A program made the translations under genes and the position numbers. The notes below the pieces were generated by a model. It was not told the DNA's origin. It saw only the letters and a list, made by a program, of their open reading frames with translations, and did not search any database. A stretch of 64,000 nucleotides of DNA from Candidatus Forterrea multitransposorum CG_2015-17_Forterrea_25_41 (GTDB taxonomy: Archaea; Iainarchaeota; Iainarchaeia; Iainarchaeales; CSSED10-239). Below are positions 8,801-58,410 of the stretch, piece by piece (position 1 is the stretch's first letter; each line of letters opens with the position of its first letter). The stretch is taken from assembly GCA_009392915.1 (NCBI GenBank), contig CP045477.1:256001-320000 (forward strand), given 5' to 3'.

Positions 8801-10248
8801 AAGGAATTTATGGTGAAGACTTACCTTTAACTATTGATTATTTAGCAACAAATTCACATAGTAATATGTTTGCTTCAAGTGTTGATTTATCAAGTTATCA
8901 AGCAGAAGAAATCAATGAGTGTCAAGTTCCAGCAACAACTGCAAGATTTGATGGAACAAGTTATTTAGATATGTGGCTTAATAAAGAAATGTATCCTGAT
9001 AATGTTGTAGGTTCTGGTTGGTCTCAAACTGATATTACAAAACTTAAAGAACTTTTAGAGTTTGATGCATACTTAATAACAGATAATTATAATAGTAATT
9101 TTAAAAATGACTTTGATATGGCCTTCGGTGGTCTTGCTTCAAAAGAAGATGGAGCTGGAGCTGGAAATTATGCTATAATGTCTTCTCCAACTGTGTTTTC
9201 AAATGGTTATCTTTCTAAATTATTTAAAAACAATTTAATATTTACAAAAGAATATTCAAGTGAAGAAAATGTAAATATTAATGTTCCAGGAAAATATAAA
9301 ATTAAAATTGATTTATTATTTGAAAATGGTTCTTGGAATTTTTATGAAGGTGATGATCTAGATGTAAATGCATTTGTAACTTTTAGATTTATTTCTTCTC
9401 CAGAAACAGATAGTGTTTTCTATAGAATGCCATTTAATGGATTTGTTGGAAAAACAACTTCTGGATATGATAGACAAGGTTATGGTGTTTCTTACTTAGG
9501 AGATTCTATAAGAGTTGATAATGAAAATGTAATTACAGAAGAAGATTATGGTTCAAATTCATTAAGAACAATAACTGTTACAAAATCAAATGATCTTTCA
9601 AGAATTAATTCAAATATTGAAACAAGAGGTAATCTATTAAGTATTAAATATAATCAAACAGACAATGTAGATTTAATATTTACTCCAAGCACACCAATTC
9701 CTTTACTTATGAGTATTGATAAGAGTAATAATAGCCCTCTTAATGTGATTTATAGACTTAAAGATAAGAGTGGTAATGCTATTAGTTCAACTTCTTTATT
9801 AAGATGGACAGGTGTTGGTTCTGGTTGTGACTTTTCTGGTAATTCTATATATAATATGACTTATTATGATAGATATGCTGGAGATGAAGGTGCAGTTTCT
9901 GCATATGTAGTTGATTGGCCACAAGTCTTAAGAACAGGAAAAATATATTTAAGAACTGTTTTCTATAGTCCTGAAAGAGAGTCTTATTCTTTAGAGAATA
10001 GATCTGATCAAGGTGTTATGGTTAAGTTTTCAAAGAATGGAACTAATTATTCTTCTTCAGTTTCTTTAGGTGAAGATGATTTAACAGGCATTAAATCTAT
10101 TTCAGATGTATTTAATTTAATTAAAGATAATAAAGTATGTGTTGTAAATTCATATGATGGAAAAACTTCTGATTTCTTTTATAATCCTTCAGAAATTTTT
10201 ACAGAGAAGTTTACAAAACAACCTTCTGATTCTTTAGAATGTAGTTAA
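2848..10248 (+). CDS. Giant (2466 aa) membrane-anchored surface protein. It has an N-terminal signal-anchor TM, multiple carboxypeptidase-regulatory-like or transthyretin-like beta-sandwich repeats, an internal two-helix TM hairpin (aa ~1520-1575), and the conserved Cys-containing C-terminal module.
   Basis: Long uninterrupted ORF 15 nt after the previous gene, with an AGAGGG RBS-like motif. Hydrophobic segment LTSFFIFLLIILVVLYLIFG. Repeated ...GYxPxxxEL/... beta-sandwich-like units. Gly/Ala-rich hydrophobic hairpin AGGAIGIGIGTAAIVSLVLIMAKVAVLGSLLGPVGWIVAGLSIVVASIAPSFF. C-terminal motifs ECVTDTGRTGKTGEGAVPNISLNW, FYRMPFNGFVGK...RQGYGV, LLRWTGVGSGCDFSG, IYLRTVFYSP, NKVCVVNSYDG. Confidence 0.85.
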   Translation: MSFKDAWQNFLTKIDNRIPIKKITGPLDKKNPLTSFFIFLLIILVVLYLIFGSSITLNNQKLTEVTIRLADSDNNILDNFDFKIRNISDGITNSYVTNSSGSLTLELDLNKKYLLIIDSPNYELLEEEINLSLDSLNFIVTVLDTPINYLKTVYFEDALTNSLIEDSLNVTIRCDNGEIITPNTIDTQSGSVEINVPLECENIYASVRGDRYIEENLEMPITESTFKLESITEILESGRVSISVFSGEDIIQDSITIKIFSVDDSITPINTTQTTNGIGFFNSIPVGEYIVKASDVSNRYLQKQEQVTIIKNSLSEITFDLIDTDTDSPIIIDPDTNQEIVIREVTVFVKDKDSGEIIDSSFDPSVTLLLDGNENIEQRNLNEGFIFNISEDKSYSLKATAEGYIPGEIIPIISGKNTYIFNLEKITISNVSNLNITVQDEDLKPIVGLKSWIYDKDGQYIDPRFDFSTSDENGNIVFENIPDLNFTIKVKNSFIEETSSMYHNSPPEDTNITLPVEIGTGTVNLTVKNKLNDIVSNAQVTFYSESLEVLGSSFASSNGTLENDLKADKRIFIKIEADGYLPYFTELFRIYKNKTVTKEIILERENLSDDVSVEFLGLYNSLDTEVESLKNNEVFYFKFKAIMPVSSQHFNFVFRAGSFTSVTEDIVFIMPQNTSLGIPVYYENEPFNESGNYLESKLVDIEFLGYPASVHEITIPIRIKNAAINERVSFFYDSSINNIDFMSNNFNQLQYFIEATSLCGEDFCFSGQYVDVSQDLRYDISSNNLISTNIHSDYILEYQITNSSSNSFEDVRLSTRNLNNDDNPVAMININSYSISGEATSVGQTIEGENNFNIPFTGDEINLEKINPFSSINYTLNVTPLNLGQSKLTNRIISLQEEIYSLPINFSVSELETMEIDYEPKNIVPGLPFDLLVTVKDTQGEYLEGVNINILQKVRNEYITVSTGKTTDPQGNVIITLPSLRPGETFEIQAIKSKYFSQNVSFTIGTDILDVYSQEQILSSESPLEVFIHKTNINGETYSLTLKNKTNYALKINQFNTEDFSFNKSYLLNLEQTVNYLNNQITSQAEGFVIPANESKEIVIKFAPSDSARTHPVSEDILGAITGNYSLNNYDYRFTIPVKAKFSVGSGVLFDDCLVVTQSPGEWNTVVSTSTQTTSFTIKNTCLSKEGEVPIPIKNVQAKISSQADRYGVYFLNLIGPSSSNQIQLSENYYRVVIDQMAPEEEYRVDLTFNTNGTRFADVKTNIHLNAQVETEDGLSFVNKEPKDIFLKTNISIMNLNDCFSYIDQNGKVINSGGLYTLEGIEENELTIRNNCQGKATFKMNLCDAYDLGCNDLIITNTDEENNILRFSLNDSEKTVYIKKDSTKAPGAYILNNRVSVINNFERELASSFALLKINAKDPNGLWMEDPFIEINEDKVSEIKRLYNNNLEKTPWDYASYYQGEEGFGKFITNIYYTGNTWKKSFNQHWSRCIAGDDTCLFNGDNSLLSMRFLPENQLSNVGAEGLSAGGAIGIGIGTAAIVSLVLIMAKVAVLGSLLGPVGWIVAGLSIVVASIAPSFFSDYDVDVQPRFLDVSENNTIDNLVALKEISVDDLSDQKELINVFDITGARYFKYFNNVIFAHGKLASKKEIKSVLPKCNGINNLVPVDQFLKVYNKPPFCDEITIEETEDSYIYKTSCNGQKLNRLELNLFYSAYSICKSDETYWPEQAGIKPLQFNLTDEIYNLLDNDSKKYYFKKYEFNPTLDDSNSTQDLAFVDSDSVGNYRFGFFLTKPEETPNYDLSLQECVTDTGRTGKTGEGAVPNISLNWNWAETDCAQTYCDATQLTQDVLDRINDAEKLISSNVVQCPISNQELYDQALNGSYKVTAEPSDVINEIPVGKVGINSVKLDSQNNKLAIKVVLENRSDTPSSGTIVISLDDKQLESIKYRDVASGEYIEENIDYPGSYSKSITVPSGIDNTNEIIFVYKEGIYGEDLPLTIDYLATNSHSNMFASSVDLSSYQAEEINECQVPATTARFDGTSYLDMWLNKEMYPDNVVGSGWSQTDITKLKELLEFDAYLITDNYNSNFKNDFDMAFGGLASKEDGAGAGNYAIMSSPTVFSNGYLSKLFKNNLIFTKEYSSEENVNINVPGKYKIKIDLLFENGSWNFYEGDDLDVNAFVTFRFISSPETDSVFYRMPFNGFVGKTTSGYDRQGYGVSYLGDSIRVDNENVITEEDYGSNSLRTITVTKSNDLSRINSNIETRGNLLSIKYNQTDNVDLIFTPSTPIPLLMSIDKSNNSPLNVIYRLKDKSGNAISSTSLLRWTGVGSGCDFSGNSIYNMTYYDRYAGDEGAVSAYVVDWPQVLRTGKIYLRTVFYSPERESYSLENRSDQGVMVKFSKNGTNYSSSVSLGEDDLTGIKSISDVFNLIKDNKVCVVNSYDGKTSDFFYNPSEIFTEKFTKQPSDSLECS

Positions 10249-13133: not shown

Positions 13134-16100
13134 ATGTCAATATTTAAAAAATCAAGAGACAAAATAGAAGCAGAAAAGCTATATGCTCTTTTATCAGACA
13201 AAACTACAAACTATACTCTAGAGGATATTAAAGAGACTATTAAAAAACAAGGTTATTCTGATAAAGTTTCTTCAATTGTTGTAAAGATGATTACAGATAA
13301 TAAACTTCCTTTAAAAGATTCAGTTAATAAAACAAAAACAAAAGAAGAAGTCTTAAAAGAATTATCAGCTTCTGTTGATAAAAACTTCTCTAAACAAAAT
13401 CCAAAAGATTCTTCAAAAGATTCAAAAAAAGAAGATAAAAATAATCAAAAAGAAAATACAAAAAAACAAGAAGATATTAAAAAAGAAGATTCTAAAAAAC
13501 AAAAAGAAGATCTTAAAAAAACAAAAGAAACAAATTTAAAAAATATTAATAAAGTTCCTTTCTTTACAAAAGTAAAAACTTTCTTTAAAAGAATATATTT
13601 CTTTTTTGAAGATAATTACTATAAGATGGTTGATGGTGTAAGTAAAGTTATACCTCTAAACAAATTAACAGACAAAATAGATAAAGTTTTCCCAAGTTTC
13701 ATATTATTCTTATTAATCTTAGCTTTATTGATATATTTAATACTTTCAGGAAGTTTATCTTTCTCTAAAACTTGGACAGTTGCTGTAGAGGTTTATGACC
13801 CATCTTCTGTACCCTTAAAAGATGTTTCTGTAACTTTAATGCTTAAAGATGAAAATTTTTCAACTTTAAAAACAGATATTTTTGGTGAAGTTATTTTTAG
13901 TGATTTTAAATCTAGAAAACAAAATATTAATTTAATAGCTTCTAAAGATAATTATGATACAGTTGAACATTCCTTTAAATTAAGTAAAAGTAATTTAAGA
14001 CAAAAGTTATATCTTCCAACAGATGTAAATTCTAAGATTGATCCTTCAGAAGAAGAAGTAAGAGAAATTTCTTTTGTTGAAAATAATACTGTTTTAATAA
14101 CAGATTCTGTATTAACTACAAATTTTTCTTGTACTAATGCAGATGTAGAACCTAATCCTACAAGAAAAGTTATTTCTTCAGGAAAGGTAACAGTTACAAC
14201 TTATTCTGGTTGTGGTGCTTTAAGAGTTTCTGTAACTTCAGATGATTTTTCTTCAATTACAAATCAAGTTATAAATTCTTCAAATAAAGTAAATCTTACA
14301 AGAATTAATCTTGATAGAGGTAATTTAGGTTTCTCTGTTAAAAACATATCTGGAAGTTCAATTCCTGGAACAGAAGTTAAAGTTTATAGTTCTTCAAACA
14401 CTACTTTTCCTCATGATACAACCACAACTGATCTTTATGGTTTAGGTGAGTTTAGTTTAGAACCTAAAAGTTATTTTTTAACTTTCTCAAAAGAAGGTTA
14501 TCTAACAAATCCTTTAAAAGGTCCTTTAACTGTTATTAAAAATGATTCTGTAAACACAGATGTAGTTTTATTTACTTTAGATGATCTTTTAGAATTTGAT
14601 TGTTCTGATGATAAATATTCACAATTTTGTATTGCTGATGAAATTGATTGTTTTAATCCAAACTTAAAACCATTTTTAATAAATAATGCTGATGGTTCTT
14701 GTACAATTGGAAGACCAGGTTATATTTCTGTAACTTTAAAAGATGTTAATTCTGGAGAACCTGTATATGCAGATATAACTTTAGATTCAAAATTAAAAGA
14801 ATCTGATCAAAACTTTTCTCTTGGTGAACATATTGCAAGGGATACTAATTTCTATACTTTTAATGTTATTGATTTCTATAATTATAGAGTAAGAGTTTTA
14901 AATACAGAAGAGAGTGGTTATCTTCAACCAGATCCAGTCACTGTAAACGGTATTGATCAAAATATAACAGTTAATTTAGAATATTCTTCTTCCCTTAACT
15001 CAGGAGATATTTCAGTAAATGTTAAGAGTGCAGATATGCCTATCTCAAATGCAAGAGTTTATTTATATAAAGAGTTTGAAGATGATTTTGTTTTAGTAAA
15101 TTCTGATCCATTATTTACAAATCAAAATGGAGATGTTAATTTTTATTCTCAAAGAGCAAATAGAGATTATTATGCTTATGCTTTACATAATGTTTTAGAT
15201 AAACAAGGAACTTCACAAACAGATGATTTAGATGTTAACTCAATACTTGATTTATCAATAGATCTTGAAGATATTCCAAAGATATTAAATCTAAAGGTAA
15301 GTCCAAGTATTTCTTATGATATTAATTTTTATAATTCTTCAGATAATCTTGTAACTGAATATGTAAGAACAGATCTTGAAGATGGAAATTCTCTTTATTA
15401 TTTTACAGGTTCTATAAATAAAGTTTATGCAGTTGTTTCTTCTTCAGGTTATACTACCTATCAAACAGATTATATTACTTTAATACCTGATCAAGAAGTT
15501 TATAAAACAGTTAATCTTTCTACACTTTCTTCTTGTGAAGACTCTAAGTTAGAAATTTTAGGTCTTTATGATGGTTCTGGAGTTTTAGAAATTGATAATA
15601 TTGATTTTGTTGAAAATGATTTAGATAAAGAATACAGATTAAAGTTTAAATATATTTCATGTACAGAAGATGAAGAATACAATCAAGCTACTTTAAGACT
15701 TGGAAGACAAGGTTTAATAGATGATGAATATTTATTCTTTGTTTCAGATCAATTTACTTCTCAAGATATAGATGTTACAAGAGGTTATAAATTTTCACAA
15801 GAACATATACCTGACTTTAATTTTGATCTTTTCAATCTTAATTATTCTCAAGATAGATCTTATGATTATTCTGGTGAAGGTTATAAATGGATTGAAATTG
15901 ATTTTGAAAAATTAAATTCTGATATCTTAGAGTTTTCAACTAACTTTAAGTTCAGAGAAGATTCAATTGTTCCTTTTGAAAACTATGTTTTAAATTATAA
16001 ATCATTTGCAAGTATTTATGATGAACTTTATTCTTTTGATCCTGTTTTAAATGAATCTTGGACAGAGATACCAATCTATCCTAATGGTTATTTTTATGCA

Positions 16101-19100
16101 GAAACAAACAAATATTTAATACCTTTTGAAAATACAGATTATATTTATTCTGTAAAATTAAAAGACTGGAATCAAAATCTTTTAGAAGAATATGCTGGTG
16201 GTTATCCTGTATCTATTAATAATTTTTATAAATATGATCTAAGTTATTTATATTTAAATCAAACAGAAAGAAACGGTAGTGTTTTACAATCTTCTCAATA
16301 TACAAATAATAATTTAGATTATTTAAGTTATGGTTATACTTCATCTTTAGGTAACTCAAGTTCAGGAGATACTCAAAATGCTACAAATAACATGACTTCA
16401 TTTTTAATACTTCCAGATTATAATACTCTTCCAGGTTCAACAGATACTACTATAAATCAAGAAATCTATTATCATATTAATGTTGATGATTATAATTATT
16501 CTTTAGATGATATTAATGCAGAGATTGGTTATTATTTAAATACTTATACTCTTTTAGAGCCAAAAGGTTTTTTTGAAAATACTAATTTTTCAGATTCAAG
16601 TATTATTTCTGATGTTTTAGATGAGTACCCTTTAGTTAATACAAGTATTTATTCTTATTTATCTGATGAAAATTTTATATTTAATATTTCAACTAACTTT
16701 TCAGGAAACAGAATAATTATTGGTGAAAATAATTTAGGTTTTAAAGTTTTAGATAATTATGGTTCTCCAGTTTCAAATGTTTTAATAAAGTATAAAGTTG
16801 ATGGTGATGAGCTTATAACTTTAGGGTCTACAAATGAACAAGGTATGCTTAGTGATCAAAATATTTTTATAAATCTTTCAGATATTGGAAAAAATATTAA
16901 TTTTGTATTTTTGTTTTCTCCAGAGTTTGGTTTCCTTGCAAACACAGTTGTAAGAAACAAAGAAATCTATTCTGGATTTTCAATAGTTCCAGAAGATATT
17001 AATTTATCTGCAAGTTATTATATTTTAAATGATCAAGTTATAATTGATCAAGTTTCTACAAATAATTATAATCTTTTAAAAGAAACAAATTATTCAAGCA
17101 CTTTAGAAGAAATTGATTTTGTTGGAGAATCAAGTTTGTTTAATCTTGATTCTATTAAAAATAAAATGATTGAAGATAATAATCTTGTAAAAGATTTATT
17201 AGAAGGAGAAAATGAAATTATTACAAGTCTTTTCTTAAACAATAATATTTCTCAATCAACAAATCTTTTAGGTTATTATAGAAATGAAATTGATATTAAT
17301 AATTCTTTAACACAATTATTAGATATTAATTCAAATGTTGAAATTATTAATCTAGGTTCAATTAACTATGATTTTAATCTTGAAAAACATTTTATGAAAG
17401 GACTATTAATTGAAAACAATAATGTTTCTCTTGAGCTTATAAAAGAAATAAACGAATTAATTACTTTAGATTTAAATCTTTTATCAGATAACTCTCAAGC
17501 AACATTTGATAGTATTTCTGTAGAGCTTCCTGAATTTTTAGATCTTGAAGAATTTAATGAAGGTTATTCTTCTTTAGTTGGAGAGTCTTTAACTTCTGAT
17601 GGTTTAATAATTCCTCTTAACTTTAAGATTAATAACTCCTATTCAGGTTCTCTTCCAACTCCAAAGGAAGATATTAATTTAACTTTTAATGTTTATCTTG
17701 ATGATAAATTAGTTTCTTTTAATAAAATAATTTCAATAAAAGTATATTCTAAAGATGACATCTTTTTAATAGAGTCTGAAGGAGACTTACAGATCTATTG
17801 TACTGTTGAAAATTGTTCTCAAAAAAAATCTTTTACTTTTAAAAAATTAGTTAATAATTATATATTAAATCTAAATAAAGAAATTGAAATCAATGAGATG
17901 GATTTAATTGAAGTTTCAAATCTTTTAAGTAATATTAATTTTATTGACCTTTCTGAAAAGAACAGAGCTTTATCTTTTAGTGCCCTATATAATTCTGTTA
18001 ACGAAGAAAATAAACAAGGTAATTTTGATTTAATTTTTAATATTAATATTTTAAATGATTCTTTTAATATAGAAATACCTATTGATTATTTAATTATAAA
18101 ATATTTAGAAGAAGAAACCATAAGTGAAATTACTTTTAATTCCTGTATTGGTGTTGGTGGTCAAGAAAGCAGTAGTGATTTATTTATTTTAGGTTATTGT
18201 CAAGATACCCAAGATACTTGTAAAACAGGAGAATCTGCTGTTCCAAAAGTATTTTTTAATTGGGCAGAATCTGACCTTTCAACAGATTATGACGGAAAAA
18301 CCTGGAATAATGTCTGTATTGGTAATAGCCAAGATACAATGTCAAGTAAATATGCTTGTGATTCCTTACAAATGTTAATTTCAATTTTTAATAAAATTGA
18401 TAATGGTGTAGAAGAATCATTCTATATTAAACTTTTAAATGATGGAATTTCTGATGCTCTTTTAAAAGATTTTATAAATTATAATACACTTTACTTAGGT
18501 TATGATAAACCTAGTGAAGAGATCTTTTCAGAAGATGCAGTTGATGATGGTTTATTTAAAATAACAATTAATAATTCTCCAGAAATTAAAATTTTCCAAC
18601 CTGGTATCTATAAAGTTTTAGTATATGGTGATGATTCAGGAAATGCATATATGGGAAGAGAAGAAGATCAAATGATAGATATACGTCTAGAAAAGGTAAG
18701 TGATCTTCCTGCATCAGAGATAAGTGTATTCCACTATATGCCATTTAATGGTAATTTAGGTTTAGATGGTACAAGAGAGGGTTACGGTATTAAAAATCAA
18801 GATAGTGATGTTGCTCAATTAACTCAAGATGTTGATATTAATTATATTGATGTTATAGATGAAATAATTCAACTATCTTTAACTAATAATAATCTAGAAA
18901 CTTCTCACTTAACACAAACATTAAAGTCTGAAGGAAAAATACTTGAATTAAATAAATATGATAGTGTTGTTGAAATGATTTATTCTCCTTCATATCCAGT
19001 ACCAATATATTCTCATGTAGCATGTATTGATAAAGATGATTTTAGTTATAATCTTTATGAAAATAATAATGCTTTAGATAATATTATAGGTGGATCATTT

Positions 19101-19577
19101 ATTGATTGGAATTTTAATAATACCATAAGATCAGATGTTAAAACAACAGTAACAGGAGATGTTACTAGATACGTATTTAACAATAATAATTTAGAAGGTT
19201 CTTTAAACCTTAATTCAATGTTATATCTTCCTGTAAAATTAAATATTGATTCTTTAAAACTTAAAACCACAGAGTTTGCAAATAATAAAAATACAACTTT
19301 ATTTACAAAGAATAATTTTACAGGTGTAAATCAAGCAGATTTAGTTTTCTCTGAAGATGATTATGTTCTTGGAAATGATTTAATAAACCTTAATACTATT
19401 AAAGGTTTATTTAATTTTATAAGTCAAGAAAAAGCATGTATTGAAAAATCTATTGATAACACAACTATTAAATGGATTGATGAAAAAGTTAATTTTACAG
19501 AACAAGAATTACTTGATATAAATAGTAATATTCCTTCTGATTATTCTTGTCTTGAAGGAGAGGTAATCATAGATTAA
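13134..19577 (+). CDS. Giant (2147 aa) membrane-anchored surface protein. A ~185-aa Lys/Glu-rich N-terminal region precedes a single TM; beta-sandwich repeats and the shared C-terminal module follow.
   Basis: ORF begins 23 nt after the previous gene. KE-rich low-complexity N-terminus. TM segment FPSFILFLLILALLIYLILSG. Repeats of the ...KEGYLTNP / ...DxxGxVxF type. C-terminal motifs GYCQDTQDTCKTGESAVPKVFFNW, FHYMPFNGNLGLDGTREGYGI, EKACIEKSIDN. The true start could instead be the internal Met just before the TM (MVDGVSKV...). Confidence 0.8.
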   Translation: MSIFKKSRDKIEAEKLYALLSDKTTNYTLEDIKETIKKQGYSDKVSSIVVKMITDNKLPLKDSVNKTKTKEEVLKELSASVDKNFSKQNPKDSSKDSKKEDKNNQKENTKKQEDIKKEDSKKQKEDLKKTKETNLKNINKVPFFTKVKTFFKRIYFFFEDNYYKMVDGVSKVIPLNKLTDKIDKVFPSFILFLLILALLIYLILSGSLSFSKTWTVAVEVYDPSSVPLKDVSVTLMLKDENFSTLKTDIFGEVIFSDFKSRKQNINLIASKDNYDTVEHSFKLSKSNLRQKLYLPTDVNSKIDPSEEEVREISFVENNTVLITDSVLTTNFSCTNADVEPNPTRKVISSGKVTVTTYSGCGALRVSVTSDDFSSITNQVINSSNKVNLTRINLDRGNLGFSVKNISGSSIPGTEVKVYSSSNTTFPHDTTTTDLYGLGEFSLEPKSYFLTFSKEGYLTNPLKGPLTVIKNDSVNTDVVLFTLDDLLEFDCSDDKYSQFCIADEIDCFNPNLKPFLINNADGSCTIGRPGYISVTLKDVNSGEPVYADITLDSKLKESDQNFSLGEHIARDTNFYTFNVIDFYNYRVRVLNTEESGYLQPDPVTVNGIDQNITVNLEYSSSLNSGDISVNVKSADMPISNARVYLYKEFEDDFVLVNSDPLFTNQNGDVNFYSQRANRDYYAYALHNVLDKQGTSQTDDLDVNSILDLSIDLEDIPKILNLKVSPSISYDINFYNSSDNLVTEYVRTDLEDGNSLYYFTGSINKVYAVVSSSGYTTYQTDYITLIPDQEVYKTVNLSTLSSCEDSKLEILGLYDGSGVLEIDNIDFVENDLDKEYRLKFKYISCTEDEEYNQATLRLGRQGLIDDEYLFFVSDQFTSQDIDVTRGYKFSQEHIPDFNFDLFNLNYSQDRSYDYSGEGYKWIEIDFEKLNSDILEFSTNFKFREDSIVPFENYVLNYKSFASIYDELYSFDPVLNESWTEIPIYPNGYFYAETNKYLIPFENTDYIYSVKLKDWNQNLLEEYAGGYPVSINNFYKYDLSYLYLNQTERNGSVLQSSQYTNNNLDYLSYGYTSSLGNSSSGDTQNATNNMTSFLILPDYNTLPGSTDTTINQEIYYHINVDDYNYSLDDINAEIGYYLNTYTLLEPKGFFENTNFSDSSIISDVLDEYPLVNTSIYSYLSDENFIFNISTNFSGNRIIIGENNLGFKVLDNYGSPVSNVLIKYKVDGDELITLGSTNEQGMLSDQNIFINLSDIGKNINFVFLFSPEFGFLANTVVRNKEIYSGFSIVPEDINLSASYYILNDQVIIDQVSTNNYNLLKETNYSSTLEEIDFVGESSLFNLDSIKNKMIEDNNLVKDLLEGENEIITSLFLNNNISQSTNLLGYYRNEIDINNSLTQLLDINSNVEIINLGSINYDFNLEKHFMKGLLIENNNVSLELIKEINELITLDLNLLSDNSQATFDSISVELPEFLDLEEFNEGYSSLVGESLTSDGLIIPLNFKINNSYSGSLPTPKEDINLTFNVYLDDKLVSFNKIISIKVYSKDDIFLIESEGDLQIYCTVENCSQKKSFTFKKLVNNYILNLNKEIEINEMDLIEVSNLLSNINFIDLSEKNRALSFSALYNSVNEENKQGNFDLIFNINILNDSFNIEIPIDYLIIKYLEEETISEITFNSCIGVGGQESSSDLFILGYCQDTQDTCKTGESAVPKVFFNWAESDLSTDYDGKTWNNVCIGNSQDTMSSKYACDSLQMLISIFNKIDNGVEESFYIKLLNDGISDALLKDFINYNTLYLGYDKPSEEIFSEDAVDDGLFKITINNSPEIKIFQPGIYKVLVYGDDSGNAYMGREEDQMIDIRLEKVSDLPASEISVFHYMPFNGNLGLDGTREGYGIKNQDSDVAQLTQDVDINYIDVIDEIIQLSLTNNNLETSHLTQTLKSEGKILELNKYDSVVEMIYSPSYPVPIYSHVACIDKDDFSYNLYENNNALDNIIGGSFIDWNFNNTIRSDVKTTVTGDVTRYVFNNNNLEGSLNLNSMLYLPVKLNIDSLKLKTTEFANNKNTTLFTKNNFTGVNQADLVFSEDDYVLGNDLINLNTIKGLFNFISQEKACIEKSIDNTTIKWIDEKVNFTEQELLDINSNIPSDYSCLEGEVIID

Positions 19578-19579: not shown

Positions 19580-19951
19580 ATGAGTAATATTTTTTTAAAT
19601 TTTTTAAATGATTTTGATTTAATCTTACAGTTATTTTTAATTCTTACAATCATTGCATTTATCAGAAGAAGAGTAACTCACAATACATTAGCTCTTTTTT
19701 TAATAAGTGTAACAGTTATTGCTATGATCTTTTTATTCTGGCCTGTCTTTAAAATTGGATATATTTTCTATATTCTTTTGTCAGTTGGAGTTGCAGGAAT
19801 ATTTGTTGATTTCTTCTTTATTAGTGCTGGTGGTTCTGCAGAAGAGATGATGGGTAAAAAAATGGAGACTCATGGAACTCCTGGAGCAACTGAACATGCT
19901 GCAAGAAATCAATTAGTTAAAAAAATGGGTGGAAGACCTCCTGGAAGATGA
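19580..19951 (+). CDS. Small polytopic membrane protein (123 aa, about 3 TM) with a basic soluble C-terminus.
   Basis: Starts 3 nt after the giant ORF stop. Hydrophobic helices LILQLFLILTIIAFI, LALFLISVTVIAMIFLFWPVF, IGYIFYILLSVGVAGIFVDFFFI. Confidence 0.5.
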   Translation: MSNIFLNFLNDFDLILQLFLILTIIAFIRRRVTHNTLALFLISVTVIAMIFLFWPVFKIGYIFYILLSVGVAGIFVDFFFISAGGSAEEMMGKKMETHGTPGATEHAARNQLVKKMGGRPPGR

Positions 19952-20306
19952 ATTAAAAATGAATAGTAATAAAGGTTTTTTTGGTGGTATTCCTTTAATT
20001 GCAAAGATATTAGTAGTGTCTGTTATTGCAATTTTGATTGTTCCTGGGGCAATGGCAATTTTTCCTTGGGTTAAGTATGTTATAATGGGTTTAATTGTTT
20101 TTTTTATTTATGAAAACGCAGCACAGGCTTTTGGTGAAAAAAATATTCTTACCTTTATTGTGACTGGTATTTTAGCTTATTTTTTAGTTTATAAATATTT
20201 ATTTCTTACAAGTGCTATAATGATGGCATATTTATTTTTAGGCTTTGGTTTAGTTTCTGTTTTCTTTTGGGGAACTTCTACTCTTTCCAGAAAAGGCAAA
20301 AAATAA
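19929..20306 (+). CDS. Small polytopic membrane protein (125 aa, about 3-4 TM).
   Basis: Overlaps the previous ORF by 23 nt in another frame. Hydrophobic helices IAKILVVSVIAILIVPGAMAIFPW, VIMGLIVFFIY, ILTFIVTGILAYFLVY, MMAYLFLGFGLVSVFFWG. Lys-rich C-terminus. Confidence 0.5.
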   Translation: MEDLLEDELKMNSNKGFFGGIPLIAKILVVSVIAILIVPGAMAIFPWVKYVIMGLIVFFIYENAAQAFGEKNILTFIVTGILAYFLVYKYLFLTSAIMMAYLFLGFGLVSVFFWGTSTLSRKGKK

Positions 20307-20314
20307 TTTTAATA

Positions 20315-20388
20315 GGATCTATGGTGTAGCCTGGATAGCACGTAGGCTTGCGGAGCCTAAAACTTGGGTTCAAATCCCAATAGATCCG
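20315..20388 (+). tRNA. tRNA-Arg (anticodon GCG), 74 nt, no encoded CCA.
   Basis: Hand-folded cloverleaf. Acceptor GGATCTA/TAGATCC with discriminator G. D-stem GTGT/GCAC. Anticodon stem TAGGC/GCCTA with loop TTGCGGA. T-arm TTGGG-TTCAAAT-CCCAA. Confidence 0.7.
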
Positions 20389-20507
20389 TCTTTATTCTTC
20401 TCTAAATGCCCATAAAATAAGGTTTTTAACACATCTATTTAAAAAGCTTTGGTATTATTAATTAATTAAAACATATAACTTTTATTACATAAAAGGGGGA
20501 ATTAAAA

Positions 20508-20777
20508 ATGAATAAAAGTACTTTAATAGAAGCTGTTGTTAAGAAAACAGATTTATCAAAAGCAAAAGCTGAAGAGTTTATTAATACAACTTTAGAAGCT
20601 ATGAAAGTAATTGTAAAAAAAGAAGGTAAATTACAATTAGTTGGTTTTGGTACATTCAAAGTTAAAAAAAGAGCTGCTAGAATGGGTAGAAATCCACAAA
20701 CAGGAAAATCTATGAAAATAGCTGCTAGTAAAACAGTTTCATTCAAAGTTGGTAAAGAATTTAAAGAGAGATTATAA
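20508..20777 (+). CDS. Bacterial-type DNA-binding protein HU (DNABII family), 89 aa.
   Basis: Protein MNKSTLIEAVVKKTDLSKAKAEEFINTTLEAMKVIVKKEGKLQLVGFGTFKVKKRAARMGRNPQTGKSMKIAASKTVSFKVGKEFKERL shows the HU signature (GFGTF, RxxRxGRNPxTG, beta-arm). Strong SD-like AAGGGGG sits 7 nt upstream of the ATG. Confidence 0.85.
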   Translation: MNKSTLIEAVVKKTDLSKAKAEEFINTTLEAMKVIVKKEGKLQLVGFGTFKVKKRAARMGRNPQTGKSMKIAASKTVSFKVGKEFKERL

Positions 20778-20815
20778 ATCTCTTTTTTTTTCTTTTTCTT
20801 TTTTTTATAATTTTT
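20765..20815 (+). terminator. Hairpin plus oligo-T terminator immediately after the HU gene.
   Basis: AGAGAGAT-TATAA-ATCTCT stem-loop overlaps the stop codon, followed by TTTTTTTTTCTTTTTCTTTTTTTT. Confidence 0.55.
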
Positions 20816-20912
20816 TAAAAAATCTATTTTTTAATAATCCCACTACTTCTTTTAAAACCTTTGTATCATAATTATGTTATACAATTAATATAAAAAAGGA
20901 GCAAAGATATAT

Positions 20913-21189
20913 ATGTTATCAAAAATAGATGATAGACAAAGATTTACAATTTCAAAAAATCTTTTAAAAGAAAATAAATATTTCTTAGATTTCAATTTAG
21001 AAAACTCAACTGTACTTTTAAGTCCATTCTCTACTGCTCCCCATCATCACTAATTCTAAAATAATTGTTTCTTCTGACAAGAAAAACAGATTTCTAATAC
21101 CTACAAGTATAAGAAAGTCTTTTGGCGTCTATAGTTTTGTAGAGGTCACTTTAAAGGAAGATTCTAAACTTTTATTGAAGTTTATTTAA
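20913..21189 (+). pseudogene. Tandem AbrB/MazE/SpoVT-like (swapped-hairpin) domain gene, interrupted. Frame 0 (20913..21053) encodes MLSKIDDRQRFTISKNLLKENKYFLDFNLENSTVLLSP... and stops. Frame +1 (open 21022..21189) encodes ...NRFLIPTSIRKSFGVYSFVEVTLKEDSKLLLKFI with no start codon.
   Basis: AAGGAG RBS 11 nt before the ATG at 20913. Two consecutive segments each resemble the RxxIPxxxR / ...VEVxLxxD...L AbrB-type hairpin and lie in different frames, with an in-frame stop between them. Confidence 0.4.
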
Positions 21190-21198
21190 ACTTATAAT

Positions 21199-21271
21199 GG
21201 TCATAATAGTGTAGTGGTTAGCATAGGAGTCTGTGGAGCTTCTGGCCCGGGTTCAAATCCCGGTTATGACC
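21199..21271 (+). tRNA. tRNA-His (anticodon GTG) with a genome-encoded G-1 pairing to discriminator C73. No encoded CCA.
   Basis: G(-1)+GTCATAA acceptor pairs with TTATGAC+C. D-stem GTGT/GCAT. Anticodon loop CTGTGGA. T-arm CCGGG-TTCAAAT-CCCGG. Confidence 0.75.
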
Positions 21272-21453
21272 CTTTTTAACCTTCCTTTTAAGAAAAGAAA
21301 CGTTAACGAAAGAAAAGTAAACTTTCTTTTAGGTAAAGAAACGGTATAACAAAAGAAAAGTAAAAAGAGATGTTAAAATGAAAAAAAAAATAAAAACATT
21401 TACTTTTTATATGTTTTTGTAATTAAAATATAATATAGAAAAAAAGATTAAAT

Positions 21454-22770
21454 ATGAATGATAAAATAATACTTGAAACCGCAAAAGGTTTTAGAGACTT
21501 TTCTCCTGAAGAAAAGATATTAAGAGATAAAGTTATTTTTAAAATAAAAAACATTTTTGAAAATTATGGTTTTTCTCCTCTAGAGACCCCAACTGTTGAA
21601 AAATTAGAAATTTTAGAAGCAAAGTTTGGAGCTGGAGAAGCTTCAGATGCAGTTTCTGAAATCTATAGGTTTAAAGATCAAGGTGATAGAGACTTAGGTC
21701 TAAGATATGAGTTTACTTTTGCCTTAGCAAGATACATTGGAATGAATCCTCAAACAAGACTTCCTTTTAAAAGATACCAAATAGGTCCAGTTTTTAGAGA
21801 TGGTCCTATTAAAGCAGGAAGATATAGAGAGTTTTATCAATGTGATGTTGATATTATAGGTGTTAATTCTCAAGAAGCTGATGCTGAAATAATTTCTTTA
21901 CTTGATTATGTTTTTAAAGAACTTAATCTAGAGGTTAACATAGAAATTAACGATAGACGTCTTTTAGAAGAAATCTTAGATTTTCTAAAAGTTACAAAAG
22001 AAAAACAAACTTCAGTAATTATAACTATTGATAAGCTTAAGAAAACAGGTAAGGAAGGGGTTAAAAATGAGCTTTTATCTAAAGGTTTAGATGAAAATAC
22101 CTGTGATTCACTGTTAAATATACTTCTTATCTCTAAAACAAACCAAGAAGCTTTAGAAGACCTATCTAAAACAATAGGAGAAACAGAAGGTATTGTTTCT
22201 TTAAGAAATTTATTTAGTTTTTTAGAGTATTATAATGTTAATTATATTTTCCTACCTTCTCTTGCAAGAGGGCTTGGTTACTATACAGGTCCAATCTTTG
22301 AAGTTTTTTTAAAAGATGAAACTATAATGTCTTCTTCAATTGCTGGTGGAGGAAGATGGGATAAAATGATAGGAAAATACTTGCAAGATGAAAATAGAAA
22401 TTATCCTGCTGTGGGTGTTGCTTTTGGTCTTGAACCAATCATGGAAATTATAAAAAAAAGAGATGGTATGGATAAAAAAACAACTGCTGATCTTTTTATA
22501 ATACCAATTGGTGATAAAAATATAAAAAAAGCTATTAGAATAACTCAAGAGATTAGAAAACAAAAAGTTAATACTTCAATTGATCTTTTAAAAAGAAATA
22601 TTGGAAAAAATATAGATTATGCAGATAAACTTGGTATAACATATGTTGGTTTTTTAGGAGAAAATGAAATTTTAGAAAATAAAATAAAAATTAAAAATAT
22701 AAAAACTGGAGAAGAATCTTTAATTGATGTTAAAGATGTTAAAAAACATTTAGTTGTAGAAGGTAATTAG
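21454..22770 (+). CDS. hisS: Histidyl-tRNA synthetase (class II).
   Basis: Class II motifs GFRDFSPEE, LRYEFTFALARY, FKRYQIGPVFRDGP, YREFYQCDVDIIG. GLGYYTGPIFE motif 3 region. C-terminal anticodon-binding domain. Confidence 0.9.
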   Translation: MNDKIILETAKGFRDFSPEEKILRDKVIFKIKNIFENYGFSPLETPTVEKLEILEAKFGAGEASDAVSEIYRFKDQGDRDLGLRYEFTFALARYIGMNPQTRLPFKRYQIGPVFRDGPIKAGRYREFYQCDVDIIGVNSQEADAEIISLLDYVFKELNLEVNIEINDRRLLEEILDFLKVTKEKQTSVIITIDKLKKTGKEGVKNELLSKGLDENTCDSLLNILLISKTNQEALEDLSKTIGETEGIVSLRNLFSFLEYYNVNYIFLPSLARGLGYYTGPIFEVFLKDETIMSSSIAGGGRWDKMIGKYLQDENRNYPAVGVAFGLEPIMEIIKKRDGMDKKTTADLFIIPIGDKNIKKAIRITQEIRKQKVNTSIDLLKRNIGKNIDYADKLGITYVGFLGENEILENKIKIKNIKTGEESLIDVKDVKKHLVVEGN

Positions 22771-24497: not shown

Positions 24498-27167
24498 ATG
24501 GCTGAAACAGAACTTAAAAAACAAGTAAGACCAATGTTTGAAAAAAACTGGAAAGAACATTATCAAGTAGATGCTCTTGAAAAACTTGGTTATGAAAGAA
24601 AAGTTTGCAGGAAATGTAATAAACCTTTCTGGACAAACACAAACAGAGATACTTGTGCTGAATCTACTTGTGAAGAAAGAAGTTTTATTGGAAAAAAAAC
24701 AAAAGAATTTTCATATACACAGACCTGGAAAGAAATTGAAAAATTCTTTGAAAGTAAAGGACATACTTCAATACCAAGATACCCTGTTATACCAAGATGG
24801 AGAAATGATCTTTATTTTACAAATGCATCAATCATTGATTTTCAACCATATGTTGTTAATGGAGAAGTTAAACCTCCAGCAGACCCTTTAATAGTTCCAC
24901 AAACTTCAATAAGGTTTGGAGATATTACAAATGTTGGTGTTACTGGAACACATTATACAACTTTTGTAATGTTTGGTCAACATGCTTTTAATACAGATCC
25001 TAAAAAACCATACTGGAAAAACGAAGCTTTATCTCTAGATTTTGAATATTTAACAAAAGTTATTGGTGTTAAAGAAAAAGATTTAGTCTTCTTTGAAGAT
25101 GTTTGGGAAGGTGGAGGTTATTTTGGACCTTCAATGGAATATTATGCACATGGTGTTGAACTTGGTAATTGTGTTTTTATGCAATTTCAAGATCTTGGAA
25201 ATAAACAATATGATCAATTAAAAAGACCAATTATAGATATGGGTGCTGGTTTTGAAAGACTTGCATGGTATACAAATGGTACACCTACAAGTTATGATGT
25301 AACTTTTAAAGATTTATTAGATTATTTAAAAAAATATACAAAAGTTAAATTTGACGGAAAACTTTTAGAAAGATTTTATAAACTTTCAGGAGAATTAAAT
25401 ATTGATGAAATTTCAGATGTTGATAAAAAATATAATGAGATTTCAGAAAAACTAGGTTTTGATAAAAAAGAACTTCTAGAAAAACTTTCTCCTGTTCATG
25501 CTCTTTATGCTATATGTGATCATACTAAAACATTACTTTATACTTCAACTGATGGTTTATTACCTTCAAATTCAGGAGGAGGATATAATTTAAGGATATT
25601 AGCAAGAAGAGTTTTAGATTTAAATAAAGAATTTAATTTTAATTTAGATTTTGAAAAAATATTTGAAATACATGTAACTTCTTTAAAAGATTTTGATCCA
25701 ACTTTAAGAAATGGTTTAAAGACTGTTATTGATGTTTTTAGAGAAGAAGAAAAAAAATATATTGCAAGTAAAGAAAAAGCTGTTCAAAAAATAAATGCTT
25801 TTTCATCTTCTAAAAAACAATTAACAACAGAAGATCTTGTAACTTTATATAAAAGTGATGGAATTACAGCTGAACAAATAAAAGAAGTTTACAAAGATAT
25901 TGAAATTCCAACAGATTATTTTACAAAAATAACTTTAGATAATGCTCAAGAAAAAGCAAAACAAGAAAACTTCTTAGATAAGCTTTTAGAAAATGAAAAT
26001 AAAGAAATTATTAAAGCTTTAAAAAATACAGAAAAATTATACTATCAAGGAATTACAGAAGTTACTGCAAAAGTAATTTTTTCTTCTAAAAAATTTGTTA
26101 TTCTTGACAAAAGTGTTTTCTATCCTCAAGGTGGAGGACAAAACTATGATCATGGAACCATAAATGGTCTTTATGATGTTTCTGAAGTTTATAATTATGA
26201 AGGAAAAATATTAGTTGTTTTAGATAATTCTCAAAAAGAGTTAAATATTGGACAAAATGTAATCTGTTTAGTTGACAGAGAAAGACAAATACAACTTAGA
26301 TCTCAACATTCTTCAACACATCTTCTAAATGCTGCTGCAAGAAAAGTTTTAGGGAATCATATCTGGCAAGCAGGTGCTTTTAAAGACGTTTCTCAAGCTC
26401 ATTTAGATGTAACTCATTATAGAGCAATTACTGATGAAGAGATAAATGAAATTGAAAATCAAGTTAATGAATGGATTCTTGAAGGAATACCAATAAATAA
26501 TTATGAACTTTCAAAAGATGAAGCTGAGAAAAAATATGGCTTTAGACTTTACCAAGGTGGTGCAATTCCTGGGAATGTTTTAAGAATATTAGAGATTCAA
26601 GGAATAGATGTACAAGCATGTGCAGGTCTTCATTTAACAAACACATCTCAAGCTGGTATCTTTAAGATTATTAAAAGAACTTCTGTTCAAGATGGTGTTG
26701 AGAGAATAATTTTTACAACTTATAAATCTGCTTTAAAATATATTAAAGAAAATGAAAATATTTTAAATAACTCTTCTCAAGTTCTTTCAGTTTCAAGAGT
26801 TGAACTTGAAAAAACCATTAAAAATTTCTTTAAGGAATGGAAAGAACAAAGAAAAGAAATTGATTCTTTAAGAGAAAGAATTGCTGAATATGAAACCAAT
26901 AATGTTATTGAAACTTCTGAAAAGAAAGTAATTGCAAAGTTTAATTTAGATTCTATTGAAATTTTAAAAATCTTTAAAAAAGTTGGAAATGTTGAAAAAG
27001 CAAAAGATAAAACAATTGCTATATATAATAATAATGGTAATGTTTTTATCTATAAAGGACCAGATTCAAAAATTTCAATTGAAGAAGTAAAAACTGAACT
27101 TGAAGAAAAAATGAAAAGAAAAATAAAAGGAGGAGGAAATATCCTCTTCCAAGGTAAATTTATATAA
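24498..27167 (+). CDS. alaS: Alanyl-tRNA synthetase, archaeal type.
   Basis: N-terminal archaeal AlaRS Cys-containing region (CRKCNKPFW...CAESTCEE). Catalytic-core motifs (RWRNDLYFTNASI). Editing-domain HxxxH (HSSTHLLNAAARK...H). Length 889 aa. Confidence 0.9.
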   Translation: MAETELKKQVRPMFEKNWKEHYQVDALEKLGYERKVCRKCNKPFWTNTNRDTCAESTCEERSFIGKKTKEFSYTQTWKEIEKFFESKGHTSIPRYPVIPRWRNDLYFTNASIIDFQPYVVNGEVKPPADPLIVPQTSIRFGDITNVGVTGTHYTTFVMFGQHAFNTDPKKPYWKNEALSLDFEYLTKVIGVKEKDLVFFEDVWEGGGYFGPSMEYYAHGVELGNCVFMQFQDLGNKQYDQLKRPIIDMGAGFERLAWYTNGTPTSYDVTFKDLLDYLKKYTKVKFDGKLLERFYKLSGELNIDEISDVDKKYNEISEKLGFDKKELLEKLSPVHALYAICDHTKTLLYTSTDGLLPSNSGGGYNLRILARRVLDLNKEFNFNLDFEKIFEIHVTSLKDFDPTLRNGLKTVIDVFREEEKKYIASKEKAVQKINAFSSSKKQLTTEDLVTLYKSDGITAEQIKEVYKDIEIPTDYFTKITLDNAQEKAKQENFLDKLLENENKEIIKALKNTEKLYYQGITEVTAKVIFSSKKFVILDKSVFYPQGGGQNYDHGTINGLYDVSEVYNYEGKILVVLDNSQKELNIGQNVICLVDRERQIQLRSQHSSTHLLNAAARKVLGNHIWQAGAFKDVSQAHLDVTHYRAITDEEINEIENQVNEWILEGIPINNYELSKDEAEKKYGFRLYQGGAIPGNVLRILEIQGIDVQACAGLHLTNTSQAGIFKIIKRTSVQDGVERIIFTTYKSALKYIKENENILNNSSQVLSVSRVELEKTIKNFFKEWKEQRKEIDSLRERIAEYETNNVIETSEKKVIAKFNLDSIEILKIFKKVGNVEKAKDKTIAIYNNNGNVFIYKGPDSKISIEEVKTELEEKMKRKIKGGGNILFQGKFI

Positions 27168-34132: not shown

Positions 34133-34463
34133 TTTTAATACACCTTTTTTTAAATATTTGCTTATATATATTAAATATAAACATATAATATAATGTAAGG
34201 TAAGTTATTTAAAAGTTTACTTTATTTTAAACTAATTTTAATAATATTTATAATACATAAAAAACTCTTAAAAAGCTGTTTTTTGAAGTAAAAAACACAT
34301 CTATTTAAAAAGTTTTTGTATGTAAATTACTTTATGCTCTTATTATCATCTCTCTATTTATCTATACCGACGAATTTTACAAAATATATATATTTATCAC
34401 TATTTAAATTTAGAGCAAAAGAGTTTATGAGATTATATTTATAAGTATAGCTTTTTTAAGAAG

Positions 34464-58308: not shown

Positions 58309-58410
58309 TTTAACTTTTTTAATAATTTTTTAACCTGTGAGATATATCTAACATATTTAAAAACATTTTGGTGTTATATATATCTAACAAGTACAATTGG
58401 AGGAAAAATT

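What the first reader, a model, noticed from the sequence alone, without database searches (positions are those of the whole stretch)
20508..20815. Bacterial-type HU (DNABII) gene with SD and a hairpin/oligo-T terminator in an archaeal genome
The protein is an unmistakable HU (GFGTFKV…RxGRNPQTG beta-arm). HU is not part of the canonical archaeal chromatin set and occurs only in certain lineages, where it was presumably acquired from bacteria. The gene has a strong bacterial-style SD (AAGGGGG) and a stem-loop plus T-tract terminator overlapping its stop codon. No histone-fold or Alba gene is evident in this window. HU and the K/A repeat protein at 48107 may be the nucleoid proteins of this organism.
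Basis: partly seen in the sequence, partly recalled or inferred. Interest (0 to 1): 0.5.

Follow-up and report, generated by a model that had tools for sequence, protein, structure and literature searches.

The report
Vertically inherited HU gene in DPANN archaea
This is a genuine, intact bacterial-type HU DNA-packaging gene in a tiny DPANN archaeon (very probably Candidatus Forterrea); it was taken from bacteria long ago, is now fully domesticated and is inherited by a whole archaeal lineage, which makes it an already-annotated and only modestly surprising second case of HU persisting in archaea.

Summary
Window 20508-20777(+) encodes an 89-aa canonical HU: PF00216 at 104 bits over its full length, F47, F50, R55, R58, R61, P63 and K86 conserved, and an AF2 model with TM 0.86-0.88 to HU-DNA crystal structures. 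The contig is archaeal (split RpoB, RpoA'/A'', aEF-2, L30e) and has about 25% GC throughout. It is very probably Ca. Forterrea multitransposorum (Iainarchaeota/Diapherotrites).

The gene is neither contamination nor a recent arrival. Its GC3 (10%) matches core genes, and dN/dS is 0.12-0.19 against the window's closest orthologues. It occupies the same slot, tRNA-Arg(GCG)-HU-tRNA-His(GTG)-HisRS, in about 20 low-GC archaeal loci. These form one clade (about 89-91% NJ bootstrap) nested among bacterial HUs and far from Thermoplasma HTa.

The expression signals are native, not "bacterial-style". A conserved TATA-like ATTTAAAAA lies about 70 nt upstream, the GGGGG SD is invariant in a genome that uses SDs widely, and the tail is a multi-run oligo-T terminator of the kind also seen after EF-2 and S7. 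The hairpin is weak and AU-rich.

No histone or Alba gene is in the window. A published table lists one histone, one Alba and this HU for Forterrea, so HU is probably not the only nucleoid protein. The gene is already annotated as HU in NCBI. What looks undescribed is its persistence across a clade.

The parts
20315..20388 (+). tRNA-Arg(GCG), the conserved upstream anchor of the HU slot
   Evidence: ARAGORN and Rfam. The same tRNA lies upstream of HU in L003-L008 and in most metagenome loci. Its GGGTTCAAATCCC T-arm is shared with L006, L007 and L008.
20430..20450 (+). Putative archaeal promoter: a TATA-like ATTTAAAAA (20437-20445) inside the conserved block CACATCTATTTAAAAAGCTTT. By inference the transcription start would be near 20465-20470, giving a 5' UTR of about 40 nt.
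   Evidence: ATTTAAAAA..TTT is invariant in the 6-locus alignment. ATTTAAAAA is present 62-78 nt upstream of the ATG in 16/18 orthologous loci. In L007 the tRNA is about 360 nt further upstream, so the element keeps its distance to HU and not to the tRNA. Promoter function itself is inferred.
20493..20499 (+). Shine-Dalgarno AAGGGGG, 8-nt spacer to the ATG
   Evidence: The sequence is. GGGG is invariant in all orthologous loci about 13 nt before the ATG. SD use is general in this window.
20508..20777 (+). HU (DNABII) coding sequence, 89 aa plus TAA stop, pI 10.4
20763..20787 (+). Weak AU-rich stem-loop of 11 pairs including G-U, with a loop next to and overlapping the stop codon
   Evidence: Fold of -12.6 kcal/mol, z=-2.1. 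Three of 11 pairs show two-sided changes across 6 loci, but the consensus energy is only -4.5 kcal/mol. It is not called by the bacterial terminator scan.
20783..20832 (+). Oligo-T terminator region: T9, T5, T8, T6 and T6 runs
   Evidence: One search shows the densest T-run cluster after any of the 46 genes, with EF-2, S7 and rpoH showing the same style. T-richness is conserved in all orthologues. Termination function is inferred from established knowledge of archaeal oligo-dT termination.
21200..21272 (+). tRNA-His(GTG), the conserved downstream anchor, followed by HisRS at 21454-22770

Best explanation
The gene encodes a functional HU-family (DNABII) nucleoid-associated protein of a DPANN archaeon, very probably Candidatus Forterrea multitransposorum or a strain of it (Iainarchaeota/Diapherotrites). 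Shown here: it is a canonical single-domain HU with every hallmark residue intact. It was acquired once from a bacterium by an ancestor of the Forterrea-like lineage and has since been inherited vertically in a fixed chromosomal slot between tRNA-Arg(GCG) and tRNA-His(GTG). It is under purifying selection and is compositionally indistinguishable from core genes. Inferred: it is transcribed as a monocistronic unit from its own archaeal BRE/TATA-type promoter about 70 nt upstream, translated through a strong conserved SD, and terminated at a dense oligo-T tract. The product forms a homodimer; only one paralogue is listed for the genome. The two beta-ribbon arms wrap the minor groove and insert Pro63 to kink and bend DNA without sequence specificity. 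The protein thereby serves as an abundant architectural chromatin protein alongside the genome's single histone and single Alba.
For: Identity: PF00216 at 104.5 bits over the full length; 49-55% identity to solved HUs; AF2 mean pLDDT 90 with HU topology; Foldseek TM 0.86-0.88 and rmsd 1.6-1.8 A to HU and HU-DNA structures. G46, G48, F50, R55, P63 and K75 are invariant, and F47, R58 and R61 nearly invariant, in the 36-sequence alignment.

Archaeal host: split RpoB, RpoA'/A'', RpoH, L30e, archaeal/eukaryotic-type S12 and S7, aEF-2, ATP-dependent ligase and archaeal AlaRS on the same contig.

Not contamination or a recent arrival: GC is uniform. HU GC3 is 0.10 against 0.08-0.14 for core genes, and dN/dS is 0.12-0.19 against the window's closest orthologues L004-L006.

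Vertical descent: the same gene order holds in L003-L008 and the same tRNA flanks in the metagenome loci. The four archaeal subgroups are monophyletic in 454/500 and 446/500 NJ bootstraps. The nearest outgroups lie in bacterial contexts with T2SS, MutSL, DnaX, YbaB and F-ATPase genes, or are named Verrucomicrobiales or Scalinduaceae.

Native expression signals.

Organism: the exact protein is on an 839,632-bp NCBI contig. The Forterrea genome is about 840 kb, because 42 kb is stated to be 5% of it (PMC5905446). The published Forterrea HU has pI 10.4032 against 10.40 computed here.
Against: There are no expression, abundance or biochemical data, so the role as an abundant global NAP, dimerisation and DNA bending all rest on homology. 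The phylogeny is neighbour-joining on about 90 columns, and only the closest 120 database hits were sampled. Identification of the window with CP045477 is circumstantial, because I could not fetch that record. Subgroups C and D replace the DNA-contacting R61 with V or I, so DNA-binding properties may differ within the clade. The promoter assignment is by position and conservation only; the 14-nt motif is not enriched window-wide (3 found against 2 expected).
Confidence: 0.82

Rival explanations
1. HU is the principal chromatin protein of this lineage, a second and independent 'histone analogue' like Thermoplasma HTa, with the histone-fold gene relegated to a minor or specialised role.
For: The protein is strongly basic (pI 10.4), whereas the Forterrea histone is listed with pI 6.57. 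The gene has the hallmarks of high expression: its own conserved promoter block, an invariant strong SD and the densest terminator in the window. HU is conserved better than neighbouring genes across the clade.
Against: The genome still lists both a histone and an Alba. The sequence is a canonical bacterial-type HU and is not HTa-like; its distance to HTa is 1.81 against 0.51 to bacterial HUs. Hocher 2019 found that canonical HUs do not give HTa-like MNase protection. No abundance data exist.
Confidence: 0.25
2. The protein is mainly a specialised accessory factor (IHF/HU-like host factor) for recombination, transposition or replication initiation, and not a global packaging protein. This would fit a genome reported to be shaped by many transposons and homologous recombination.
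For: HU and IHF serve as host factors in bacterial transposition, site-specific recombination and CRISPR integration; IHF complexes appear among the structural matches. The Forterrea genome is described as transposon-rich and recombinogenic.
Against: NCBIfam scores are higher for the HU models than for the IHF models, and all are below the equivalog cut-offs. Identity to IHF structures is only 30-32%, against 40-49% to HU structures. There is a single gene, so no alpha/beta heterodimer. No transposase or integrase is linked to the locus in any genome.
Confidence: 0.12
3. Bacterial contamination or mis-binning or mis-assembly: the HU segment does not belong to the archaeal chromosome.
For: Hocher 2019 warns that most isolated 'archaeal' HU hits are contaminants.
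Against: The gene is embedded between archaeal genes on contigs of 246-840 kb from independent samples and assemblers. Synteny is identical in at least 6 species-level genomes. GC and GC3 are identical to core genes. The promoter, SD and terminator are conserved.
Confidence: 0.01
4. Cargo of a virus or mobile element integrated at a tRNA gene.
For: The gene sits between two tRNA genes. The slot just downstream is variable, with serpin insertions in L002, L093 and L004. HU homologues occur in phages.
Against: No integrase, repeats or other mobile genes accompany the gene. It is present in every syntenic locus examined. The closest IMG/VR relative is only 45% identical. Composition is fully ameliorated.
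Confidence: 0.03

Closest known systems
Bacterial HU (DNABII family, Pfam PF00216), e.g. E. coli HupA/HupB, Bacillus HBsu, Anabaena HU
   Same: Length (89 aa), full-length profile match, 49-55% sequence identity, the same residue numbering for F47, F50, R55, R58, R61, P63 and K86, and the same fold (TM 0.86-0.88). It is a single-domain protein and presumably a homodimer.
   Different: The host is an archaeon. The gene is driven by an archaeal TATA-type promoter and an oligo-T terminator. It coexists (per the literature) with a histone and an Alba. Some clade members have V or I at position 61.
HTa of Thermoplasma acidophilum / Thermoplasmatales-DHVE2 (the archaeal HU-family 'histone analogue', Hocher et al. 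2019, PMC6877293)
   Same: An HU-family protein acquired from bacteria by an archaeal ancestor and then inherited vertically across a clade. It is basic, about 90 aa long and single-copy.
   Different: The host is a low-GC DPANN archaeon of about 0.84 Mb from subsurface or anoxic habitats, not a thermoacidophile. The host genome retains a histone-fold gene. No evidence exists for HTa-like oligomerisation or MNase protection.
IHF (integration host factor alpha/beta)
   Same: Same fold and family; the proline-tipped beta arms are conserved.
   Different: Identity is lower (30-32%), a single gene gives no heterodimer, and the NCBIfam IHF scores are lower than the HU scores, with all below the cut-offs.

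Membership tests
HU / DNABII (Pfam PF00216 Bac_DNA_binding) | Full-length match to the family profile above the curated threshold | tested here: met
   104.5 bits against a cut-off of 22.4, covering residues 1-89 and profile positions 1-89 of 90.
HU / DNABII (Pfam PF00216 Bac_DNA_binding) | Fold: N-terminal helix-turn-helix dimerisation body, three-stranded sheet with an extended beta-ribbon arm, and a short C-terminal helix | tested here: met
   AF2 mean pLDDT 90.2 with elements H3-13, H18-39, E41-44, E48-55, E58-61, E68-71, E74-81 and H83-88. Foldseek TM 0.86-0.88 to 3rhi and 1p51/1p71.
HU / DNABII (Pfam PF00216 Bac_DNA_binding) | Conserved DNA-contact residues: arm arginines R55, R58 and R61, the intercalating P63 in the RNPxTG motif, and the GFGxF core | tested here: met
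   All are present in the window protein. G46, G48, F50, R55, N62 and P63 are invariant, and F47, R58 and R61 are conserved in at least 90% of the 36 sequences.
HU / DNABII (Pfam PF00216 Bac_DNA_binding) | Dimerisation and non-specific DNA binding and bending | not testable with these tools
   Needs purified protein (EMSA, cyclisation, supercoil-constraint assays).
HU / DNABII (Pfam PF00216 Bac_DNA_binding) | High cellular abundance, as expected of a nucleoid-associated protein | not testable with these tools
   No transcriptome or proteome data are available here. The strong SD, promoter and terminator are only suggestive.
E. coli-type HU-alpha / HU-beta or IHF-alpha / IHF-beta equivalogs (NCBIfam) | Score above the equivalog cut-off | tested here: not met
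   HU-alpha 87.8 bits (cut-off 162), HU-beta 84.2 (157), IHF-alpha 75.4 (111), IHF-beta 72.2 (115). It is a generic HU and not an orthologue of these specific subfamilies.
HTa clade (Thermoplasmatales/DHVE2 archaeal HU, histone analogue) | Phylogenetic membership in the HTa clade | tested here: not met
   Kimura distance to HTa is 1.81, against 0.51 to the nearest bacterial HUs. The archaeal clade found here is nested among bacterial sequences.
HTa clade (Thermoplasmatales/DHVE2 archaeal HU, histone analogue) | Host genome lacks histones, so HU substitutes for them | tested here: inconclusive
   No histone gene is in the 64-kb window. The supplement of Hocher 2022 lists a 70-aa histone-fold protein for Forterrea CP045477. 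I could not fetch the genome to confirm this.
Bacterial intrinsic (Rho-independent) terminator | G+C-rich stem-loop immediately followed by a U-tract | tested here: not met
   The consensus scan finds none in 19900-21500. The stem has only 2 G-C pairs and z=-2.1.
Archaeal oligo-dT termination signal | Run(s) of at least 5 T directly downstream of the stop codon | tested here: met
   T9, T5, T8, T6 and T6 runs within 60 nt, conserved in the orthologues. Actual termination was not tested.

The most novel reading that the evidence does not exclude
The Forterrea-like Iainarchaeota are a second archaeal lineage, independent of Thermoplasmatales, in which a bacterial HU has been recruited as a major and perhaps the dominant chromatin protein. 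This recruitment would have happened in a mesophilic, 25%-GC, host-dependent DPANN archaeon with a near-neutral histone. It may form part of a 'bacterial-style' nucleoid together with the lysine/alanine-repeat H1/HC2-like protein at 48107-48346. That would make HU recruitment a recurrent route of archaeal chromatin evolution and would provide a natural HU-plus-histone coexistence system.
Probability: 0.25. Interest if true: 0.6.

Novelty: new member of a known kind. Interest (0 to 1): 0.35.

Why it matters
HU is the signature chromatin protein of bacteria. The literature I could search states that the only archaeal clade where it persists is Thermoplasmatales/DHVE2, and treats other archaeal hits as probable contaminants (PMC6877293). 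This analysis shows a second clade that is clearly not contamination. About 20 low-GC DPANN loci in four subgroups share one syntenic slot with conserved archaeal expression signals and purifying selection. That adds a data point on how readily nucleoid proteins cross domains. It also offers a natural case of HU coexisting with a histone and an Alba in a minimal genome. The individual gene itself is ordinary: it is already annotated as HU in NCBI and listed in a published supplementary table.

Tried and rejected
- Literature: I searched for HU in DPANN or Diapherotrites with the term sets 'DPANN'+'HTa'+'nucleoid-associated'+'histone', 'Diapherotrites'+'DNA-binding protein HU', 'DPANN'+'HU family' and 'DPANN'+'HU protein'. 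No paper discusses it. Two earlier searches failed because 'HU' is shorter than 3 characters.
- Bacterial-type terminator and sigma-70 promoter scan: no terminator was called, and promoter-like hits were at chance level (9 found against 8.6 expected), so a bacterial expression cassette is rejected.
- Viral origin: the IMG/VR scan gives a best hit of only 45% identity, so this is rejected.
Nothing was significant. The one E=0.005 Sso7d hit lies in the lysine-rich stretch around the EF-2 start and was dismissed.
- The first bootstrap script with Biopython timed out. I replaced it with a numpy NJ implementation.
- I could not retrieve the whole Forterrea genome or walk the 663-840 kb contigs, so the histone and Alba genes were not verified directly. 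I relied on the supplement of Hocher 2022.
- Using L007's low HisRS and AlaRS identity as a divergence clock was abandoned, because L007 carries a different (short, bacterial-type) AlaRS.
- The antisense ORF 20462..20746(-) of 94 aa is a mechanical ORF inside the HU gene with no support, and was ignored.

Full report
**1. The observation**

Window 20508-20777(+) is an ATG-initiated ORF of 89 codons. It matches Pfam PF00216 (Bac_DNA_binding) end to end at 104.5 bits, E=3.6e-30. It aligns without gaps to solved HU proteins at E about 1e-22. In the same numbering as E. coli HU it keeps F47, F50, R55, R58, R61, P63 (in the RNPQTG arm tip) and K86.

An AlphaFold2 model built on 36 homologues has mean pLDDT 90 and the HU topology. 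Foldseek superposes it on Bacillus, Lactococcus, E. coli and Anabaena HU, including HU-DNA co-crystals, at TM 0.86-0.88 and rmsd 1.6-1.8 A.

The AAGGGGG element (20493-20499, with an 8-nt spacer), the stem around the stop codon and the long T-rich tail are all present.

**2. The host is archaeal, and very probably Ca. Forterrea**

The same contig encodes RpoH, split RpoB''/B', RpoA' and RpoA'', L30e, archaeal/eukaryotic-type S12 and S7, aEF-2, an ATP-dependent DNA ligase and an archaeal-type AlaRS. GC is 20-31% in every 2-kb bin, with no step at the HU locus.

The identical protein is in NCBI as 'HU family DNA-binding protein [Candidatus ainarchaeum sp.]'. It occurs on 66 contigs, the longest 839,632 bp. 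Probst & Banfield 2018 describe the complete genome of Ca. Forterrea multitransposorum, a deep-branching Diapherotrite from Crystal Geyser. They report a 42-kbp region with five proteins of more than 1,800 aa that is '5% of the entire genome', which implies about 840 kb. The window carries 2,466-aa and 2,147-aa ORFs immediately upstream of HU.

The supplement of Hocher et al. 2022 lists one Bac_DNA_binding protein of pI 10.4032 for Forterrea CP045477. I compute pI 10.40 for the window protein. I infer that the window is this genome or a strain of it, but I could not fetch the record to prove it.

**3. Not contamination, not recent, not mobile**

The HU gene has GC 27% and GC3 10%. HisRS, AlaRS, RpoB', RpoA', EF-2, S12 and S7 have GC3 of 8-14%.

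In six species-level genomes from GTDB the order is the same: giant surface protein, two small membrane proteins, tRNA-Arg(GCG), HU, tRNA-His(GTG), HisRS. These genomes have HU identities of 100, 93, 91, 91, 69 and 67%. A metagenome scan added more loci, including a fourth subgroup at 70-73% identity. Almost all have 22-30% GC. All carry GGGG about 13 nt before the ATG, and all have the same tRNA flanks wherever the contig reaches them.

dN/dS between the window and its close orthologues (L004-L006) is 0.12-0.19. No integrase or repeats accompany the gene, and the closest IMG/VR relative is only 45% identical. The only variable element is the slot downstream of HU, where one or two serpin genes are inserted in some genomes.

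**4. Origin**

I built a neighbour-joining tree (Kimura distances, about 90 columns) of the 120 closest database proteins plus references. The archaeal subgroups form a single clade in 454/500 bootstraps (three subgroups) and 446/500 (four subgroups). The clade is nested among bacterial HUs.

The nearest outgroup proteins lie next to T2SS secretin, MutS/MutL, DnaX, YbaB or F-type ATPase genes. Others are named Verrucomicrobiales, Scalinduaceae or Lachnospiraceae.

The simplest reading is one bacterium-to-archaeon transfer into an ancestor of the Forterrea-like lineage, independent of the HTa acquisition. The donor phylum is not resolved by 89 residues.

The other Diapherotrites genomes in Hocher's table (four CG08/CG10/CG11 MAGs and Iainarchaeum andersonii) list Alba with or without a histone, but no HU. 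In that sample the gene is confined to the Forterrea branch.

**5. Expression signals are native**

Upstream, the block ATTTAAAAA..TTT (window 20437-20450) is invariant in the six-locus alignment. ATTTAAAAA lies 62-78 nt before the ATG in 16/18 loci. In L007 the tRNA is about 360 nt further away, so the element belongs to HU. By position and sequence it is best read as an archaeal TATA box. This is inference; it would place the transcription start about 40-45 nt before the ATG.

The SD is not a bacterial relic. In the window 13/46 genes have GGAG, GAGG, GGTG or GGGG at -20..-4, against 5.9% of random 17-mers, and most are GGTGA-type.

Downstream, HU has the densest cluster of T-runs of any gene in the window. 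EF-2, S7 and rpoH have tails of the same style, consistent with oligo-dT termination by archaeal RNA polymerase (established knowledge).

The stem-loop is AU-rich with 2 G-C pairs. Its energy is -12.6 kcal/mol, z=-2.1. It is missed by the bacterial terminator scan. It shows two-sided changes at 3 of 11 pairs across six loci, but the consensus energy is only -4.5 kcal/mol. A purine-rich Lys/Glu/Arg coding end followed by oligo-U will pair almost automatically, so I treat the hairpin as possible but unproven.

**6. Function**

Everything that defines an HU at sequence and fold level is met. Dimerisation, DNA bending and abundance cannot be tested here.

I commit to a general architectural NAP acting as a homodimer through Pro63-tipped arms. 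It would be expressed as a strong monocistronic unit and would work alongside the genome's histone (pI 6.6) and Alba (pI 9.0) listed by Hocher 2022.

Two alternatives remain open. One is that HU is the dominant chromatin protein, an HTa-like analogue (about 0.25). The other is that it is mainly a recombination or transposition accessory factor in this transposon-rich, recombinogenic genome (about 0.12).

**7. Comparison with what is known, and novelty**

The gene is a member of the HU/DNABII family. It is not a member of the HTa clade, nor of the E. coli HU or IHF equivalog families.

It is already annotated as HU in NCBI and appears in a published supplementary table. Archaeal acquisition of HU by horizontal transfer is a known phenomenon.

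What I did not find described is the persistence across a clade: conserved synteny, a conserved promoter and SD, and purifying selection in the Forterrea-like Iainarchaeota. Hocher 2019 named Thermoplasmatales/DHVE2 as the single archaeal clade with persistent HU. I therefore rate it a new member of a known kind, with modest interest.

Noticed in passing
window 48107-48346 (+): A 79-aa ORF made almost entirely of AKKAPAKKVV-type repeats. It has a strong SD (GGAGGG at 48092-48097) and is a called gene on the same 663-kb JGI contig, present in 58 blocks of the collection. It gives a weak, sub-threshold match to the chlamydial histone H1-like HC2 family (PF07382, 35.4 bits against a cut-off of 40). 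It may be a second basic nucleoid protein, but the similarity may be purely compositional.
   Followed up: partly
window 20913-21053 (+): A 46-aa ORF directly downstream of HU with its own SD (GGAG). It is conserved in L003 (100%), L006 (83%) and L004 (46%). Its N-terminus, KIDDRQRFTISKNLL, looks by eye like an AbrB/SpoVT swapped-hairpin DNA-binding motif, but it has no Pfam hit.
   Followed up: partly
L002 6424-7770; L004 8424-10991; compare window 20780-21200: The slot between HU and tRNA-His is variable. One serpin gene is inserted in some strains, and two tandem serpin genes (423 and 421 aa) in L004. The window has none.
   Followed up: partly
L007 7182-8960, against window 24498-27167: In the same syntenic position the window has an archaeal-type AlaRS (TIGR03683, 836 bits, 889 aa). 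L007 instead has a short 592-aa AlaRS that matches NF002436 (748 bits) and the bacterial alaS model better. This looks like xenologous replacement within the lineage.
   Followed up: partly
L007 5038-5307; L098; L100-L105; proteins P0015, P0017, P0024: Two archaeal HU subgroups replace the DNA-contacting Arg61 with Val or Ile (GVNPQTG, GINPQTG) while keeping Pro63. This may alter DNA binding.
   Followed up: no
L132 2836-3100: This group-B HU copy lacks about 9 residues at the arm tip (MGRNPQTGK is missing). It may be a pseudogene, a natural arm-less variant or an assembly error.
   Followed up: no
window 1-64000: GC skew is positive in nearly every 2-kb bin and rises monotonically in the cumulative plot, and 38 of the 46 ORFs of at least 100 aa are on the + strand. 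This fits the bacterial-like replication skew reported for the Forterrea genome (PMC5905446).
   Followed up: partly
window 2848-10248 and 13134-19577 (+): Giant ORFs of 2,466 and 2,147 aa lie just upstream of HU, with 836-aa and 809-aa neighbours. They probably belong to the 42-kbp cluster of huge membrane-anchored proteins described for Forterrea. The 2,147-aa protein is only 25-56% identical among relatives, whereas HU is 67-93% identical.
   Followed up: partly
window 34303-34316 and 58355-58368 (+): The same ATTTAAAAANNTTT motif found upstream of HU occurs twice more, both times in intergenic DNA upstream of + strand genes (the rpoH/RNA polymerase operon and ORF 58411). The count is not above chance (3 found against 2 expected), but the positions suggest a shared promoter type.
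   Followed up: partly
window 48477-49604 (+): A 375-aa protein matches only the N-terminal NADPH-binding part of DXP reductoisomerase (82.6 bits against a cut-off of 461, residues 1-143). This is odd in an organism reported to lack lipid and isoprenoid synthesis, and it may be a repurposed or degenerate Dxr-like protein.
   Followed up: no
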